Origin: Limnothrix sp. BL-A-16
Lineage (GTDB): Bacteria > Cyanobacteriota > Cyanobacteriia > CACIAM-69d
Assembly (NCBI GenBank): GCA_041937175.2
Contig: CP166615.1
Span: forward strand, 1,184,001-1,248,000
Reading direction: 5' to 3'
Length of the DNA: 64,000 nt
In this document: positions 44,123-59,664 of the stretch, in pieces
How the letters are laid out: each line of letters opens with the position of its first letter
Numbering within the stretch: the stretch's first letter is position 1
The notes under the pieces: model-generated
The model's input: the letters and a program-made list of their open reading frames with translations, nothing else
What the model was told of the DNA's origin: nothing
Databases searched by the model: none
Made by a program: the position numbers and the translations under genes

Positions 44123-44163
44123 AAATAGACCCCGATCACACCAGGGCGATCGGGGGTCTATTT
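44123..44163. terminator. Probable bidirectional terminator between convergent lysR and prx
   Basis: AAATAGACCCCGATC...GATCGGGGGTCTATTT stem. Confidence 0.65.
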
Positions 44164-44255
44164 GTTGATGTCGCTAACCGCCAGGTGGCCCTAATCCCAA
44201 GCTCAGTGATTTAGCTTGAAATTAAAAGCCACTGGAGATTAAAAACTGATTGAAA

Positions 44256-44897
44256 TTACTTGTTGGGCTGGGGAGTCATGCGCAGGTAAGGCTTGATTTC
44301 CGTCACGCCCTTGGGGAATTTCTGGCGAGCTTCCTCGGTCGGAATCGAGGGAACCACCACGCAATCGCCGCCATCTGTCCAGTCGGCGGGCGTAGCCACA
44401 CTGTAGTTATCGGTCAGTTGCAGCGAGTCAATCACACGCAACAGCTCATCAAAGTTGCGGCCGGTGCTGGCGGGATAGGTGATCGTCAAACGCAGCTTTT
44501 TGTTGGGATCGATGATGAAGACCGATCGCACCGTCAGGGTGTTACCGGTGCTGGAATTGGGGTGAATCATCCCGTACAGTTCCGACACTTTCTTATCTTC
44601 GTCGGCCAGAATCGGATAATTCAGGGTCGTGCTTTGGGTTTCTTCAATGTCGGCCGTCCAGCCATGGTGCGAATCTACGCTGTCAACGCTCAGGGCCAGC
44701 GCCTTCACATTGCGCTTGTCAAATTCACCCTTCAGTTGGGCAACGCGGCCCAGCTCGGTGGTGCAAACGGGGGTATAGTCCGCCGGGTGCGAAAACAGCA
44801 CCACCCAGCTATCGCCTGCCCAAGCGTAGAAGTCGATCGAGCCGTGGGTGGAAGCCTGCGTGAAATCGGGGACGGTATCGCCAAGTCTGAGAGTCAT
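44256..44897 (-). CDS. 1-Cys peroxiredoxin (Prx6 type)
   Basis: FSHPADYTPVCTTE, YPASTGRNFDE, ATPADW. Confidence 0.95.
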   Translation of the reverse strand: MTLRLGDTVPDFTQASTHGSIDFYAWAGDSWVVLFSHPADYTPVCTTELGRVAQLKGEFDKRNVKALALSVDSVDSHHGWTADIEETQSTTLNYPILADEDKKVSELYGMIHPNSSTGNTLTVRSVFIIDPNKKLRLTITYPASTGRNFDELLRVIDSLQLTDNYSVATPADWTDGGDCVVVPSIPTEEARQKFPKGVTEIKPYLRMTPQPNK

Positions 44898-44925
44898 GAT
44901 TCTTCGTTGGTCAATGATTAATTGA

Positions 44926-45092
44926 TTGACATCCTCCTCGCCCCAAAGGGTGAGGATTCCTCACCGCGCCTGAACCCAGCGAATCGGGCCGAGGTCGCTG
45001 AATGGGGTTGACGCTTCACAGGCCACCACTGGCGAACCAGTCTGACGCTGGCCTCCACGTCCGTTTAAAGTCTCGGACTGCCCGCCCGCGAC
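44926..45092 (-). ncRNA. Orphan TnpB omega/reRNA-like module with IS200/IS605 right end
   Basis: GTCGCGGGCGGGCAGTCCGAGACT...TGAAGCGTCAACCC...GAATCCTCACCCTTTGGGGCGAGGAGGATGTCAA; translates as a TnpB-tail-like VAGGQSETLNGRGG...CEAST; homologous to 58443-58608. Confidence 0.72.
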
Positions 45093-45326
45093 GATGCATC
45101 AAACCAGTCAGGAGTGAATTTGCGGGCTGACGGGTCTGGGGGGCTAGAGGGGAGAGCGCCCGCAGATCATGATGCCACGAAACCCCAGTTTTCCGACCGG
45201 ATTTTCGATCTTTTTCACCCAACAGGCCCGCCAGCGGAATTCCAGGCGACAAATGCGGTTGATTCGGCTTGGCAGTTCCGCTGTAGCTAGGGCTTGTACT
45301 GCTGGAAAAATTAATGAAGCGCTTTT

Positions 45327-45404
45327 ACGATTAGGCGTTCGGGTCATCCTAATCACAGCCCGGAGTAACGATCAGGTGTTCAGGTCATCCTAATCACGGC
45401 CCGG
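45327..45404. repeat. Tandem 41-bp-period repeat x2, each unit a hairpin
   Basis: ACGATTAGGCGTTCGGGTCATCCTAATCACAGCCCGG and ACGATCAGGTGTTCAGGTCATCCTAATCACGGCCCGG. Confidence 0.8.
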
Positions 45405-45547
45405 GATGCGAATCTTGCGATCTGGATGTTCAGGATAGCAGGACTCTGTAGCGAAATTATCAGTCTTCGTAAATCTGCAATCCTTCCGGGGACAAACCGT
45501 AAAGTTCCGCAATGATCCTGAAATGTTCGCCATGCTTGCTTAAACCA

Positions 45548-46183
45548 TCATTTCGGGCAGGATGCTGAAATGCAGGCGAGGGAGAAGGTGCGCAGGGCAG
45601 CAATTTGGCTCATTTGGATTTCGTGGCCCCCATCGAGTTCCAAATAGGTGACGGTGGCATCGCGGCCTTGGAGATCGTCGCGCACTTGCCAGGCGGCTTG
45701 GATCGGGACAACGAGATCTTGGCGGCCGTGGGTTACTAGCACTTGGGGCCCCTGTTTGAGGGAGCTGACTTGCGGCAGAGCGTGGAAATAGCCGCTGAGG
45801 GAAGCAACGCCAGCCAGGGGTAGCGCTAACCCCACATCTAGGGCCATGGCTCCGCCTTGGGAAAATCCGCAAAGGACGGTTCGATCAAGCGGTATGCCCG
45901 ATCGCTCCGTGGTGGCCAACAGCCAGTTTTGGAGCTGATCTCGGCTGGCCTGCAAGCCTGGATAATCGGACGATTCCAAGTCGTACCACATGCGCCCTTC
46001 GTTGGAGTAGGGATAGGCCATGGGAGCTTGGGGAAATTCCATTTGCCAGTCCGGCAAGTTCAGCAACGGAGCCAACGCGGCCACATCATTTGCATTTGCC
46101 CCCCAACCATGAAGCGCGACCAGCATTGCCGCTGGTGTGCGGTTCGCCTCGGGGGAAATCGCGATCGCCTCTAATAAAGCCAC
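45548..46183 (-). CDS. Phospholipase/carboxylesterase (alpha/beta hydrolase)
   Basis: LHGWG, GFSQGG, HGRQDLVVP, GGHEI; GAGGAG RBS before GTG 46183. Confidence 0.9.
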   Translation of the reverse strand: MALLEAIAISPEANRTPAAMLVALHGWGANANDVAALAPLLNLPDWQMEFPQAPMAYPYSNEGRMWYDLESSDYPGLQASRDQLQNWLLATTERSGIPLDRTVLCGFSQGGAMALDVGLALPLAGVASLSGYFHALPQVSSLKQGPQVLVTHGRQDLVVPIQAAWQVRDDLQGRDATVTYLELDGGHEIQMSQIAALRTFSLACISASCPK

Positions 46184-57842: not shown

Positions 57843-58405
57843 TGCCGCTCCTCAAAACACCACACCAACAATCACGCCATATCATATCAGCAACGGTCAA
57901 ATTGCCGCAGAGAAGCGTTGATCCTCCTAAAACCAGCCTGGGCTGTGGGTTTCGGCGAACGATCGTGGCCTAAAATCTGGCAAATTTCTTGCGAATTCAA
58001 CCCATTTTGATGGGGAACAGCCCAATTAGTCCGATCGACCCAGAAGGGTGTTTGAGCGGCCCCAGCCAAGCCTCCAGCAGACCTCCAGCAGACCTTAACC
58101 AAGCCCAAACCCAGCTTTTGCGATCGCCCCACCGGGCCTCATTCCCAGCGGCCATCACTCACTTCGAGGCCAAACCGCAACCAGCGATCATGATCCCCGC
58201 AAAAATTCTGCAAAATCCGTTGCGATTAGTTTGGGATTCGGCCGGGATCGATGGTTAAATGTGGGCACATTGCTGGCATGATGGCTTGGCACTTGTCAGG
58301 CGATCACTTGGGGCAGCTTTTCGTGTGCTCGCCCTCTGTTTTGGGGGGATCGATCGACCCGATCAACCCCGCCTCAGTTCCCAGAATCAGATCGTGCAGT
58401 TAGCC

Positions 58406-58430
58406 TGTACCATATGATTTTGGGTACAAT
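58406..58430 (+). promoter_or_regulatory. Candidate -10 box TACAAT overlapped by TGTACC-N11-GGTACA inverted repeat
   Basis: TACAAT at 58425-58430, 12 nt before the omegaRNA-like module; no clear -35. Confidence 0.4.
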
Positions 58431-58442
58431 CAACGCCTTCAA

Positions 58443-58608
58443 GTCGCGGGCGGGCAGTCCGAGACTCGAAACAGACGCAGAGGTCAGCGCCAGCCTGGTT
58501 CGCCAGCAGCAGCCGATGAAGCGTCAACCCGTGGTCTAGTTGAGCAACTTTAGTAGTTGCTGAATTAGGGCTGGCAATCCCGCTCCGAAAATGTGGGAAA
58601 AACGTCAA
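58443..58608 (+). ncRNA. Orphan TnpB omega/reRNA-like module in the gap2 leader
   Basis: First 88 nt align without gaps to the prx copy (74/88 identical by hand count); ends CAATCCCGC...GTGGGAAAAACGTCAA. Confidence 0.7.
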
Positions 58609-58650
58609 CTATTTCCTTAATACACCCTAAGCACGCGAGGGCATAGCATA

Positions 58651-59664
58651 GTGATTAGAGTCGCCATTAACGGTTTTGGCCGAATCGGTCGTAACTTCTT
58701 AAGATGCTGGTTGACCCGCCAAGATAGCCAGCTCGAACTGGTGGGCATTAACGATACGTCCGACCCCAAGACGAATGCCCACCTGCTCAAGTACGACACG
58801 ATGCTCGGCAAGCTAAATGCCGACATTCAGGCTGACGAAAATTCCATTACCGTCAACGGCAAAACGATCAAATGCGTGTCCGATCGGGATCCGCTCAAGT
58901 TGCCCTGGGCCGAGTGGGGCATTGACCTGATCATTGAATCGACAGGCGTATTTGTTAGCGAAGAAGGCGCTTCTAAGCACATCCAAGCCGGTGCCAAGAA
59001 AGTCCTGATCACCGCTCCGGGCAAGGGTGACGGTGTTGGCACGTTCGTGATGGGCGTGAACGACAGCGACTACGACCACGACAAATTCAACATCGTTAGT
59101 AACGCAAGCTGCACCACCAACTGCTTGGCTCCCGTGGTGAAGGTGTTGCATGAGAACTTTGGCATCATCAAAGGCACCATGACCACCACCCACAGCTACA
59201 CGGGCGACCAACGGTTGCTCGATGCGAGCCACCGGGATGTGCGTCGGGCCCGCGCTGCGGCCATGAACATTGTGCCCACCTCCACGGGTGCTGCCAAGGC
59301 GGTGGCCCTGGTGTTGCCGGAAATGAAGGGCAAACTGAACGGGATCGCGATGCGTGTGCCGACCCCGAACGTTTCGGTGGTGGACTTTGTGGCCCAGGTG
59401 GAAAAGAGCACGATCGCCGAGCAGGTGAACGAAGTGCTGAAGGCCGCCGCTGAAAACGGCCTGAAGGGCATTTTGGAATACAGCGATCTGCCCTTGGTTT
59501 CGTCGGACTATAAGGGAACCGATGCTTCCTCGATCGTGGACGCTAGCCTGACCTTGGTGCTGGGCGGCGACATGGTGAAGGTGATCGCTTGGTATGACAA
59601 CGAGTGGGGCTACAGCCAGCGCGTTGTGGACTTGGCGGAACTGGTTGCCCGCAAGTGGAAGTAG
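58651..59664 (+). CDS. gap2: NAD(P)-dependent GAPDH (Calvin cycle, Gap2)
   Basis: [44 protein letters not shown]. Confidence 0.95.

What the first reader, a model, noticed from the sequence alone, without database searches (positions are those of the whole stretch)
44898..45092. Orphan TnpB omegaRNA-like module in the 5' leader of the peroxiredoxin gene
Seen (minus strand, 167 nt): a 5' stem GTCGCGGGC...GTCCGAGAC, nested GACG/CGTC and AGGCCA/TGGCCT stems, an ACTGG-TTCG-CCAGT tetraloop hairpin, a variable stem, and a terminal hairpin TCCTCACCC-TTTG-GGGCGAGGA ending GATGTCAA, 28 nt before the prx ATG. Knowledge (recalled, not database-checked): hairpin + TCAA is the IS200/IS605 right end, and the peptide VAGGQSETLNGRGG...CEAST resembles cyanobacterial TnpB tails, the region encoding the omega/reRNA scaffold. 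No tnpB RuvC or Zn-finger codons, tnpA or left end are visible upstream. The guide position would be TCAATTAATCATTGACCAAC, the prx translation-initiation region. Inference: a stand-alone guide RNA for a trans-encoded TnpB or nuclease-dead TnpB, or a domesticated scaffold through which TnpB binds or processes host mRNA leaders.
Basis: partly seen in the sequence, partly recalled or inferred. Interest (0 to 1): 0.88.

Follow-up and report, generated by a model that had tools for sequence, protein, structure and literature searches.

The report
Orphan transposon guide-RNA remnant before prx
The structured 167-base element in front of the peroxiredoxin gene is the leftover guide-RNA and right-end portion of an IS200/IS605-type mobile element that has lost its nuclease gene, a kind of relic already described elsewhere, and it looks like a passenger in the gene's leader, not a new regulator.

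Summary
Window 44926-45092 (minus strand) is a 167-nt module with the described stems, ending GATGTCAA 28 nt before the 1-Cys peroxiredoxin ATG.

It is homologous, with the same start and end points, to the 3' tail plus right end (RE) of an intact 402-aa TnpB gene elsewhere in this genome. It therefore has the position and architecture of a TnpB omegaRNA scaffold. The prx copy has no tnpB, no detectable left end (LE) and no adjacent tnpA.

The genome holds about 22 such tnpB-less remnants. In my crude gene calls, 17 of 20 point at the 5' end of the next gene (median 42 nt to the start), including gap, psaE, psbV and a phycobiliprotein gene.

RNA-library contigs from three studies run from the prx CDS through the module. 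That is a weak hint that it lies in the leader.

Against domestication:
- Orthologous orphans drift at about the synonymous rate. The gap copy diverges faster, while its flanks are nearly invariant.
- No guide has a TAM-adjacent target elsewhere in the genome.
- The prx-type variant occurs tnpB-less in 9 of 401 cyanobacterial genomes, without gene-start proximity there.

Non-autonomous elements (PATEs) carrying omegaRNAs for TnpB in trans, and truncated tnpB remnants with such RNAs, are already in print.

Verdict: new member of a known kind; modest interest.

The parts
44926..45092 (-). Orphan omegaRNA-type scaffold plus right end (RE) of an IS200/IS605-family (tnpB-only, IS1341-type) element; 167 nt
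   Evidence: Same start and end points as the 3' end of the intact tnpB at G000:C1:672141-673396; CM R1 score 132.1 bits, E 1.4e-34; weak sub-threshold Rfam hits to HgcC (18.2 bits) and sot0042 (15.4 bits)
45070..45092 (-). 5' hairpin GTCGCGGGC...GTCCGAGAC; the common 5' boundary of the tnpB-less copies
   Evidence: All 8 pairs kept in the six G000 copies; truncation points of 11 tnpB-less copies fall at aa 334-363 of 402, 7 of them at aa 356-363
45010..45061 (-). Central domain: GACGT/GCGTC and GGC/GCC stems enclosing the CTGG-TTCG-CCAG tetraloop hairpin
   Evidence: Compensatory CTGG/CCAG to CCAG/CTGG swaps between copies
44926..44956 (-). RE subterminal hairpin TCCTCACCC-TTTG-GGGCGAGGA plus GGATGTCAA terminus
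   Evidence: All copies end ...GTCAA and the flanks then diverge; an RE-only profile finds 24 sites in the genome
44898..44925 (-). 28-nt spacer between RE and the prx ATG; its first 20 nt occupy the omegaRNA 'guide' position and contain the palindrome TCAATTAATCATTGA
   Evidence: 0 of 27 positions differ between G000 and G002; no TAM-adjacent match with <=2 mismatches in 16 nt elsewhere in the genome
44256..44897 (-). 1-Cys peroxiredoxin gene (213 aa)
   Evidence: Pfam AhpC-TSA 5.2e-31 and 1-cysPrx_C 1.6e-07
45093..45312 (-). Upstream part of the putative prx leader; RNA-library contigs end at 45288 (two studies) and 45312 (one)
   Evidence: X1 44455-45288, X7 44131-45288, X6 44280-45312; these are contigs only, so this is a weak hint
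58443..58608 (+). Second orphan module of the same family in the window, 42 nt upstream of the GAPDH start (GTG at 58651)
   Evidence: (164.7 bits); retained in G002 and G001 but diverging faster than synonymous sites

Best explanation
The element is the surviving 3' portion (omegaRNA scaffold plus right end) of an IS200/IS605-family, tnpB-only (IS1341-type) insertion sequence. This family inserts 3' of a TTAC/TNAC motif. It readily produces non-autonomous derivatives in which everything between the left end and the omegaRNA 5' hairpin is deleted. The prx copy belongs to a variant lineage that is tnpB-less in every copy I sampled, and it has lost any recognisable left end. It is therefore immobile: it cannot be excised, so its 'guide' (the 20 nt of prx leader after ...GTCAA) has no homing job. 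It sits in sense orientation between the probable prx transcription start and the ribosome-binding region, so it is most likely co-transcribed as a structured but functionally neutral part of the leader. The genome-wide excess of such remnants just upstream of gene starts is best explained by survivorship. Small, sense-oriented, terminator-free insertions in 5' UTRs are tolerated and then become fixed. Further deletion risks the adjacent translation-initiation region. Intact elements persist mainly in harmless convergent positions. Shown: homology, boundaries, structure, copy census, orientation counts, drift rates. Inferred: co-transcription, neutrality, survivorship.
For: Identity. One cognate TnpB (402 aa; HTH_OrfB_IS605, OrfB_IS605 and Cas12f1-like TNB domains) carries the same module at its 3' end. 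Six copies share exact start and end points. Covariation supports the fold. The weak Rfam hits are to the tnpB-3'-end RNA families HgcC and sot0042 (link to tnpB from passages of PMC4615843).

Transposon biology. The LE and TAM are defined from 8 full-length copies. The empty psaE site in G001 and G003 shows insertion exactly 3' of TTAC, in the 5' UTR between a conserved upstream block (which I read as the promoter) and the ribosome-binding site. In G013, 32 mini-ISs have an LE abutting TTAC, fused to the same omegaRNA boundary, through at least two independent deletion types.

Leader location. RNA-library contigs from 3 studies span the CDS plus the module.

Neutrality. G000 versus G002: modules 27/660 differences against third codon positions 32/675. 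Gap copy, G000 versus G001: 59/162 plus 22 gap positions against 84/334 at third positions (p=0.011, module faster), while the RE-to-start spacer differs at 1/42 and a 35-nt upstream block is invariant.

No trans target.

The prx-type lineage is tnpB-less in 12 of 12 loci from 9 genomes.

Survivorship. About 1 of 7 full-length copies is sense-upstream of a gene, against 17 of 20 old remnants. The young G013 burst is intermediate: 27 sense, 12 antisense, 18 unclear.
Against: The prx copy itself is unusually conserved between G000 and G002: 1/168 differences against 17/214 at third codon positions. It is not significantly lower than the neighbouring non-coding DNA (7/307), and this is a single close comparison.

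The sense bias (17 of 20, p=0.016 against a conservative null of 0.60) and the proximity to starts (downstream gap smaller than upstream gap in 15 of 17, p=0.002) could also reflect function or an insertion preference. G013's young copies already show some bias.

The clustered 5' boundary shows that a complete scaffold is what gets retained. This implies selection at the level of the element, and TnpB could still bind these RNAs.

My gene calls are a crude codon-model caller, and its G000 codon table was applied to other genomes. RNA evidence is from assembled contigs only. No empty site could be found for the prx insertion.
Confidence: 0.75

Rival explanations
1. Selfish stand-alone guide. 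The module still makes an omegaRNA that the trans-encoded TnpB loads, as proposed for PATEs, to re-cut the empty site after excision and restore the element by recombination.
For: An intact TnpB is present, with D/E/D-type and CxxC motifs visible in its sequence (motif assignment recalled). One Y1 transposase gene is in the genome. The scaffold is complete at 132 bits. The concept is stated in passages of PMC10055086. LE-bearing siblings L003 and L006 fit this model.
Against: The prx copy has no detectable LE, so TnpA could not excise it and no donor joint would ever form. It carries a variant core lacking the GTGGTCTAG block that 22 of 29 copies match under my pattern. Whether this genome's TnpB accepts that variant is unknown.
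Confidence: 0.1
2. Domesticated leader element. TnpB (or RNases acting on the scaffold) binds or processes host mRNA leaders that carry the scaffold, coupling expression of prx, gap, psaE, psbV and others to the transposon nuclease. Alternatively, the structured 5' domain stabilises these mRNAs.
For: 17 of 20 remnants are sense-oriented, with a median of 42 nt to the start. Downstream genes include several that are typically highly expressed: prx, GAPDH, PsaE, cytochrome c-550, a phycobiliprotein and L20. The prx module is conserved between G000 and G002. A paper I read in part (PMC4615843, abstract) reports that overexpressing a sotRNA and a PATE-derived RNA improved growth of H. salinarum.
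Against: Orthologous modules drift neutrally or faster, while both flanks are constrained. G001 and G003-G005 manage prx without the module. Foreign prx-type copies are not near gene starts: 0 of 9 within 80 nt. Full-length copies lack the bias.
Confidence: 0.07
3. Insertion preference instead of survivorship. The Y1 transposase, which needs single-stranded DNA, preferentially integrates these elements into the exposed non-template strand of heavily transcribed leaders. That would give sense orientation and proximity to gene starts from the outset.
For: IS200/IS605 transposition uses ssDNA (established knowledge; described in passages of PMC10055086). The psaE insertion is on the sense strand of a 5' UTR. 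G013's young burst already shows 27 sense against 12 antisense, and 16 of 57 copies have a sense start within 80 nt.
Against: Full-length copies in G000, G001 and G002 are mostly convergent with the downstream gene. The G013 excess is not significant against a 0.6 null by my rough reckoning. TTAC is too short a motif to explain targeting. I could not resolve a replication-strand effect: cumulative GC skew is weak.
Confidence: 0.08

Closest known systems
omegaRNA (reRNA) of IS200/IS605-family TnpB
   Same: It overlaps the tnpB 3' end and runs to the RE, ending at the TCAA-type cleavage motif with the guide supplied by flanking DNA. The multi-stem scaffold shows covariation. The cognate TnpB has the three Pfam domains.
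   Different: At the prx locus there is no tnpB upstream and no LE. RNA expression, processing and TnpB binding are untested.
PATE-like non-autonomous IS200/IS605 elements that encode omegaRNAs (Meers et al., PMC10055086, passages read)
   Same: No ORF, an omegaRNA retained, and dependence on TnpB in trans. True examples occur in this family: L003 and L006 in G000, and 32 copies in G013.
   Different: The prx copy lacks the LE that defines a PATE, so it is a decayed or truncated derivative and not a mobile PATE.
sotRNAs / HgcC RNAs, and the truncated 120-bp tnpB pseudogene with a probable sotRNA in Halobacterium salinarum (Gomes-Filho et al. 2015, PMC4615843, abstract and passages read)
   Same: An RNA from the 3' end of an IS1341-type tnpB with a tetraloop hairpin, and persistence of that segment in remnants that have lost the gene. 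Weak Rfam hits point to these two families.
   Different: That work is in archaea. The Rfam scores here are far below the gathering thresholds (18.2 against 50; 15.4 against 88). No expression data exist for this strain.
Free-standing IS605 stem-loops linked to Borrelia lipoprotein genes (Delihas 2009, PMC2775950, abstract read)
   Same: IS605 end structures persist without the transposase gene, attached to host genes.
   Different: Those lie at the 3' ends of genes and are single stem-loops. Here the whole ~167-nt scaffold lies 5' of the gene.
TldR, nuclease-dead TnpB-like RNA-guided repressors (PMC10705468, search listing and abstract start only)
   Same: TnpB-derived RNA guidance acting next to host genes.
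   Different: TldR genes are encoded beside their guide RNA and target promoters through TAM plus guide complementarity. Here no tnpB-like gene is adjacent, the cognate TnpB appears catalytically intact, and no TAM-adjacent target exists.

Membership tests
IS200/IS605 right end with TnpB omegaRNA | Homology to the 3' end of a bona fide tnpB gene | tested here: met
   tblastn aa 363-391 at 72% identity; DNA alignment with shared start and end; TnpB Pfam domains
IS200/IS605 right end with TnpB omegaRNA | Subterminal RE hairpin and a sharp terminus at a TCAA-type motif, with flanks unrelated between copies | tested here: met
IS200/IS605 right end with TnpB omegaRNA | Conserved RNA secondary structure with covariation | tested here: met
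   7 of 50 pairs compensatory in 6 copies; 28 of 50 in 29 copies, 92.6% paired against 28-45% for slid controls (alignment fitted to the model)
IS200/IS605 right end with TnpB omegaRNA | Insertion 3' of a short TAM (TTAC-like) without target duplication | tested here: inconclusive
   Met for the psaE copy (empty sites in G001 and G003) and for G013 mini-ISs (TTAC). For the prx copy no empty site could be reconstructed.
IS200/IS605 right end with TnpB omegaRNA | An RNA of defined ends is expressed and bound by TnpB | not testable with these tools
   Only RNA-library contigs spanning the region are available
PATE (palindrome-associated transposable element) | Both LE and RE present with no ORF between them | tested here: not met
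   No LE-profile hit at E<=10 within 300 nt upstream of the prx module. Met for the sibling copies L003 and L006.
Rfam HgcC (RF00062) / sot0042 (RF02656) | Score at or above the family gathering threshold | tested here: not met
   18.2 against 50 bits and 15.4 against 88 bits; no gathering-level match in the window
TldR-type domesticated RNA-guided regulator | An adjacent nuclease-dead TnpB homolog, and a guide complementary to a TAM-flanked host target | tested here: not met
   No tnpB-like ORF at the locus. The cognate TnpB retains IDLG, LEDL and HDRD motifs (motif roles recalled). The best TAM-flanked guide matches have 3-4 mismatches in 16 nt.

The most novel reading that the evidence does not exclude
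The complete omegaRNA scaffolds embedded sense-wise, within roughly 20-180 nt of the start codons of prx, gap, psaE, psbV, a phycobiliprotein gene and others, may make these host mRNAs substrates of the genome's single cognate TnpB. Binding or 5'/3' processing at the scaffold, with the ribosome-binding region held in the guide position, would couple transposon-nuclease level to expression of core redox and photosynthesis genes. That would be an RNA-level form of TnpB exaptation, distinct from DNA-targeting TldR.
Probability: 0.06. Interest if true: 0.75.

Novelty: new member of a known kind. Interest (0 to 1): 0.3.

Why it matters
The locus is a clean, well-bounded example of how tnpB-only IS200/IS605 elements shrink to omegaRNA-plus-RE modules and become fixed inside the leaders of host genes. 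This is useful for annotation, because such leaders could be mistaken for riboswitches or sRNAs. The orientation and position bias (17 of 20 sense, median 42 nt from the start) raises a testable question. Are 5' UTRs preferred landing sites for single-strand transposons, merely the places where remnants survive, or sites where TnpB meets host mRNAs? As it stands, the evidence favours an ordinary relic.

Tried and rejected
- Rfam at gathering thresholds found nothing in the window. Permissive scans gave only sub-threshold HgcC and sot0042 hits.
- Single-sequence folding was uninformative (z = -1.31).
- Consensus promoter and terminator scans of 44850-45600 found none.
- I sought an empty site for the prx insertion. 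G001 has an unrelated ~260-nt leader, and the G003-G005 leaders are unrelated too, so no boundary could be reconstructed.
- An LE search upstream of the prx, gap, L002 and psaE copies was negative. By eye the gap copy keeps an LE-like GGGTAC segment, but this is unproven.
- A guide off-target search gave only chance-level matches.
- An RE-only profile, meant to enlarge the census, added only 2 sites.
- Replication-strand bias: cumulative GC skew is weak (minimum at 3.34 Mb, maximum at 0.57 Mb), and I drew no conclusion from it.
- RNA cover: parts of the stretch without contig cover in runs X1 and X6 are not evidence of silence.
- Our-findings look-ups returned nothing relevant.
- Literature searches for orphan omegaRNAs in cyanobacterial 5' UTRs found no such report. 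That covers only the open-access library searched.
- Rejected readings: a riboswitch or other cis-regulatory RNA (no Rfam support; clear IS homology), and a chance hairpin cluster (multi-copy homology).

Full report
**1. The observation**

The minus strand of window 44926-45092 reads exactly as described:
- a 5' hairpin, GTCGCGGGC...GTCCGAGAC;
- nested GACGT/GCGTC and GGCCA/TGGCC stems around an ACTGG-TTCG-CCAGT hairpin;
- a variable stem;
- a terminal hairpin, TCCTCACCC-TTTG-GGGCGAGGA, followed by GGATGTCAA.

It ends 28 nt before the ATG of a 213-aa ORF. That ORF is a 1-Cys peroxiredoxin (AhpC-TSA 5e-31, 1-cysPrx_C). Taken alone, the sequence folds no better than shuffles (z = -1.31). The case for it being real therefore rests on homologues.

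**2. What it is**

BLAST and a covariance model place it in a repeat family. One copy (C1:673227-673396) is the 3' end of an intact 402-aa TnpB gene. That protein carries HTH_OrfB_IS605, OrfB_IS605 and Cas12f1-like TNB domains, and its tail reads ...NIQVAGGQSETQNGRGG....

Six high-similarity copies start at the same base (GTCGCGGGCGGGCAG) and end at ...GTCAA, and their flanks are unrelated.

The fold is supported by covariation. In the six copies, 7 of 50 pairs are compensatory. In 29 copies from several genomes, 92.6% of cells are paired against 28-45% for slid partners, 28 of 50 pairs have double changes, and 0 of 500 shuffles do as well. The caveat is that this alignment is fitted to the model.

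Rfam gives only sub-threshold hits, and both are to families of tnpB-3'-end RNAs: HgcC at 18.2 bits and sot0042 at 15.4 bits. The link of these families to IS1341-type tnpB comes from the abstract and passages of PMC4615843.

The module is therefore the omegaRNA-scaffold-plus-right-end segment of an IS200/IS605-family, tnpB-only element.

**3. Anatomy of the parent element**

Eight full-length copies in G000, G001 and G002 define the left end. It reads T(T/G/C)(G/C)AC | CAAAAGAAAGGGTACAAGCCCCGCCC-TTCTA-GGGCGGCTTTTT...TATAAT...ATG.

At psaE, G001 and G003 keep an uninterrupted leader...TTGATTTAC|AAGAGAGGAAGATAAACC-ATG. In G000 and G002 the module ends ...GGGTCAA|AAGAGAGAAAAATAAACC. This is an insertion exactly 3' of TTAC, inside the 5' UTR, between a conserved upstream block (which I read as the promoter) and the ribosome-binding site.

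In G013 a related family (TnpB about 50% identical) shows LEs abutting an invariant TTAC in 32 mini-elements.

The genome has one Y1 transposase match, far from any of these copies.

**4. Orphans and their boundaries**

The covariance model finds 22 sites in G000 at E<=1. Only two have a tnpB upstream. An RE-only profile adds two more sites.

Among 11 tnpB-less copies in G000, G001 and G002, the retained tail starts at aa 334-363 of 402, and 7 of them start at aa 356-363.

An LE profile detects an LE directly upstream of L006, and about 145 nt upstream of L003. Both have G002 orthologues with the same LE. It also detects one in G001_C17. It finds none upstream of the prx, gap, L002 or psaE copies.

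In G013, at least two independent deletions fuse the LE/promoter/start-codon region to the same omegaRNA 5' boundary. A second G000 subfamily (h13, h14, h18) looks the same by eye.

The recurrent boundary is therefore best read as selection, at the level of the element, for non-autonomous derivatives that keep a complete omegaRNA. [quoted passage not shown]

**5. The prx copy in particular**

It is the most divergent of the six close copies (132 bits against 165-200). It has a variant core...CAACCC-CATTCAGCGACC..., in place of the ...CAACCCGTGGTCTAG... block that 22 of 29 copies match under my pattern.

That variant is not private decay. The 3' 105 nt recur in 9 of 401 sampled genomes of the class, in 8 of 169 genera. 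In 10 of 10 foreign loci only the tail (aa 357/363-391) matches TnpB, or no TnpB match is found at all. With G000 and G002, that makes 12 of 12 loci tnpB-less.

Six of the foreign loci share a roughly 100-nt upstream domain with G000's L003 mini-IS.

The prx copy is present in G002, at 97% identity over 1145 nt. It is absent from G001, whose leader is otherwise unrelated apart from a shared box about 300 nt upstream of the ATG. The prx leaders of G003-G005 are unrelated, so no empty site could be reconstructed.

**6. Is it in the leader?**

Contigs from RNA libraries of three separate studies run without a break from the prx CDS through the module. They stop at 45288 (X1 and X7) and at 45312 (X6), while a fourth run of unknown kind continues further. 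Contigs cannot show transcript ends or exclude DNA carry-over, so this is only a weak hint of a roughly 390-nt leader containing the module. No consensus promoter or terminator was found.

**7. Orientation and position**

Using my own crude codon-model gene caller, 17 of the 20 tnpB-less CM hits point at the 5' end of the next gene. The three exceptions are h10, h15 and h19. With the two extra RE-profile sites the count is 18 of 22.

The distances from ...GTCAA to the start are 18-183 nt, with a median of 42 nt. The downstream gap is smaller than the upstream gap in 15 of 17 cases (p=0.002). Against a conservative null of 0.60, 17 of 20 gives p=0.016.

The downstream genes include GAPDH, PsaE, cytochrome c-550, a phycobiliprotein, a second AhpC/TSA protein, HcyBio, ArgJ and L20.

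Full-length copies do not share the bias: about 1 of 7 is sense and most are convergent. In G013's young burst, 57 copies were examined. Of these, 27 are sense, 12 antisense and 18 unclear, and 16 have a sense start within 80 nt. The bias is thus strongest in old, fixed remnants, which points mainly to survivorship. A contribution from insertion preference is not excluded.

**8. Constraint**

| Comparison | Region | Differences |
|---|---|---|
| G000 vs G002, four orthologous orphan loci | modules | 27/660 |
| | third codon positions | 32/675 |
| | first and second codon positions | 10/1355 |
| | RE-to-start spacers | 1/130 |
| G000 vs G002, prx locus alone | module | 1/168 |
| | third codon positions | 17/214 |
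| | adjacent non-coding DNA | 7/307 |
| G000 vs G001, gap locus | module | 59/162 plus 22 gap positions |
| | third codon positions | 84/334 |
| | RE-to-start spacer | 1/42 |

The G000-G002 figures come, and the G000-G001 gap figures.

At the gap locus the module diverges faster than third positions (p=0.011), and a 35-nt block just upstream is invariant. The modules therefore behave as drifting passengers between constrained host signals. The prx copy's low divergence is the one result that points the other way, and it rests on a single close pair.

**9. Guides**

None of the seven guides tested has a TAM-flanked match with <=2 mismatches in 16 nt elsewhere in the genome (six tnpB-less copies, prx among them, plus the intact tnpB copy). 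The best matches have 3-4 mismatches. Each guide-position sequence is simply the DNA that happens to follow the RE. At the prx copy, which lacks an LE, no excision and hence no homing target can arise.

**10. Comparison and verdict**

The element works like, and descends from, a TnpB omegaRNA/RE. It is not a PATE in the strict sense, because it has no LE. It is not TldR-like, because there is no adjacent dead nuclease and no target.

Orphan or PATE-borne omegaRNAs have been described: a truncated tnpB remnant with a probable sotRNA, and free-standing IS605 stem-loops attached to host genes. My four literature searches found no report of omegaRNA remnants in cyanobacterial 5' UTRs. Those searches cover only the open library, and supplements were not consulted.

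I rate it a new member of a known kind. Interest is modest (0.3), resting mostly on the orientation and position bias.

Noticed in passing
window 58443-58608 (+), with flanks 58400-58651: A second orphan module lies 42 nt upstream of the GAPDH start. Between G000 and G001 the 35 nt just upstream (GTGCAGTTAGCCTGTACCATATGATT.TGGGTAC) and the 42-nt spacer are almost invariant, while the module itself is 36% diverged. The upstream block resembles the start of the LE (…GGGTAC…) and may now serve as a gap promoter or operator.
   Followed up: partly
window 45165-45215 (-): A box, AAAAAGATCGAAAATCCGGTCGGAAAACTGGGGTTTCGTGGCATCATGATC, upstream of prx is shared with G001, although the leaders are otherwise unrelated. 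It contains a small hairpin with one compensatory-type change. It is unique in the genome. It could be a promoter/operator or a leader RNA element.
   Followed up: partly
window 45328-45406 (-): A tandem direct repeat of a roughly 38-nt unit (…CCGGGC.GTGATTAGGATGACC.GAAC.CCT.ATCG) lies upstream of the putative prx transcript start. It is unique in the genome.
   Followed up: partly
window 44911-44925 (-): A 15-bp palindrome, TCAATTAATCATTGA, lies between the RE and the prx ATG. It is present only in G000 and G002. It looks like an operator, but no regulator was identified.
   Followed up: no
L015:1664-1700 (G000 psaE leader): Right after the RE, the 18-nt ribosome-binding segment is present twice: AAGAGAGAAAAATAAACC, then AAAGGAAGATAAACC. 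The empty sites in G001 and G003 have it once. It may be a repair or compensation duplication.
   Followed up: no
L011:1313-1500 (G000 L003) and L161, L162, L163, L164, L168, L169: A conserved ~100-nt segment (…GGCTGTGAAACCGGGACTG.GAC.G..AGAGGGAAAGA…GGGCAACGGA…) sits between the LE and the omegaRNA module in mini-ISs of at least five genomes. It has no Rfam match in L011, and its function is unknown.
   Followed up: no
G000:C1:1441049-1441199 (-), 287520-287670 (-), 3665263-3665413 (+): A second, 151-nt mini-IS subfamily has an LE-type hairpin, a -10-like box and an ATG/GTG fused straight to a TnpB tail (…AAGLAVSVCG…). One copy lies 34 nt upstream of a phycobiliprotein gene.
   Followed up: partly
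G000:C1:3631768 (+): A 15-of-16 match to the first 16 nt after the gap copy's RE (the CTATTTCCTTAATAC motif), with no TAM upstream. It may be a shared regulatory motif or chance.
   Followed up: no
L101 (G000:C1:1720028-1723369) and C1:1722613-1724211: The genome's only Y1 transposase match lies in a 282-aa open frame, longer than I recall for a typical TnpA. Just downstream, a motif recurs at alternating spacings of about 510 and 580 nt.
   Followed up: no
L078, L079, L086, L088 (G001 copies C85, C78, C111, C64): These tnpB copies carry …HDSPSETLRERD… where the others have the second CxxC of the zinc finger (…CLHCGAVHDRD…). This may be a variant or a degenerate nuclease lineage.
   Followed up: no
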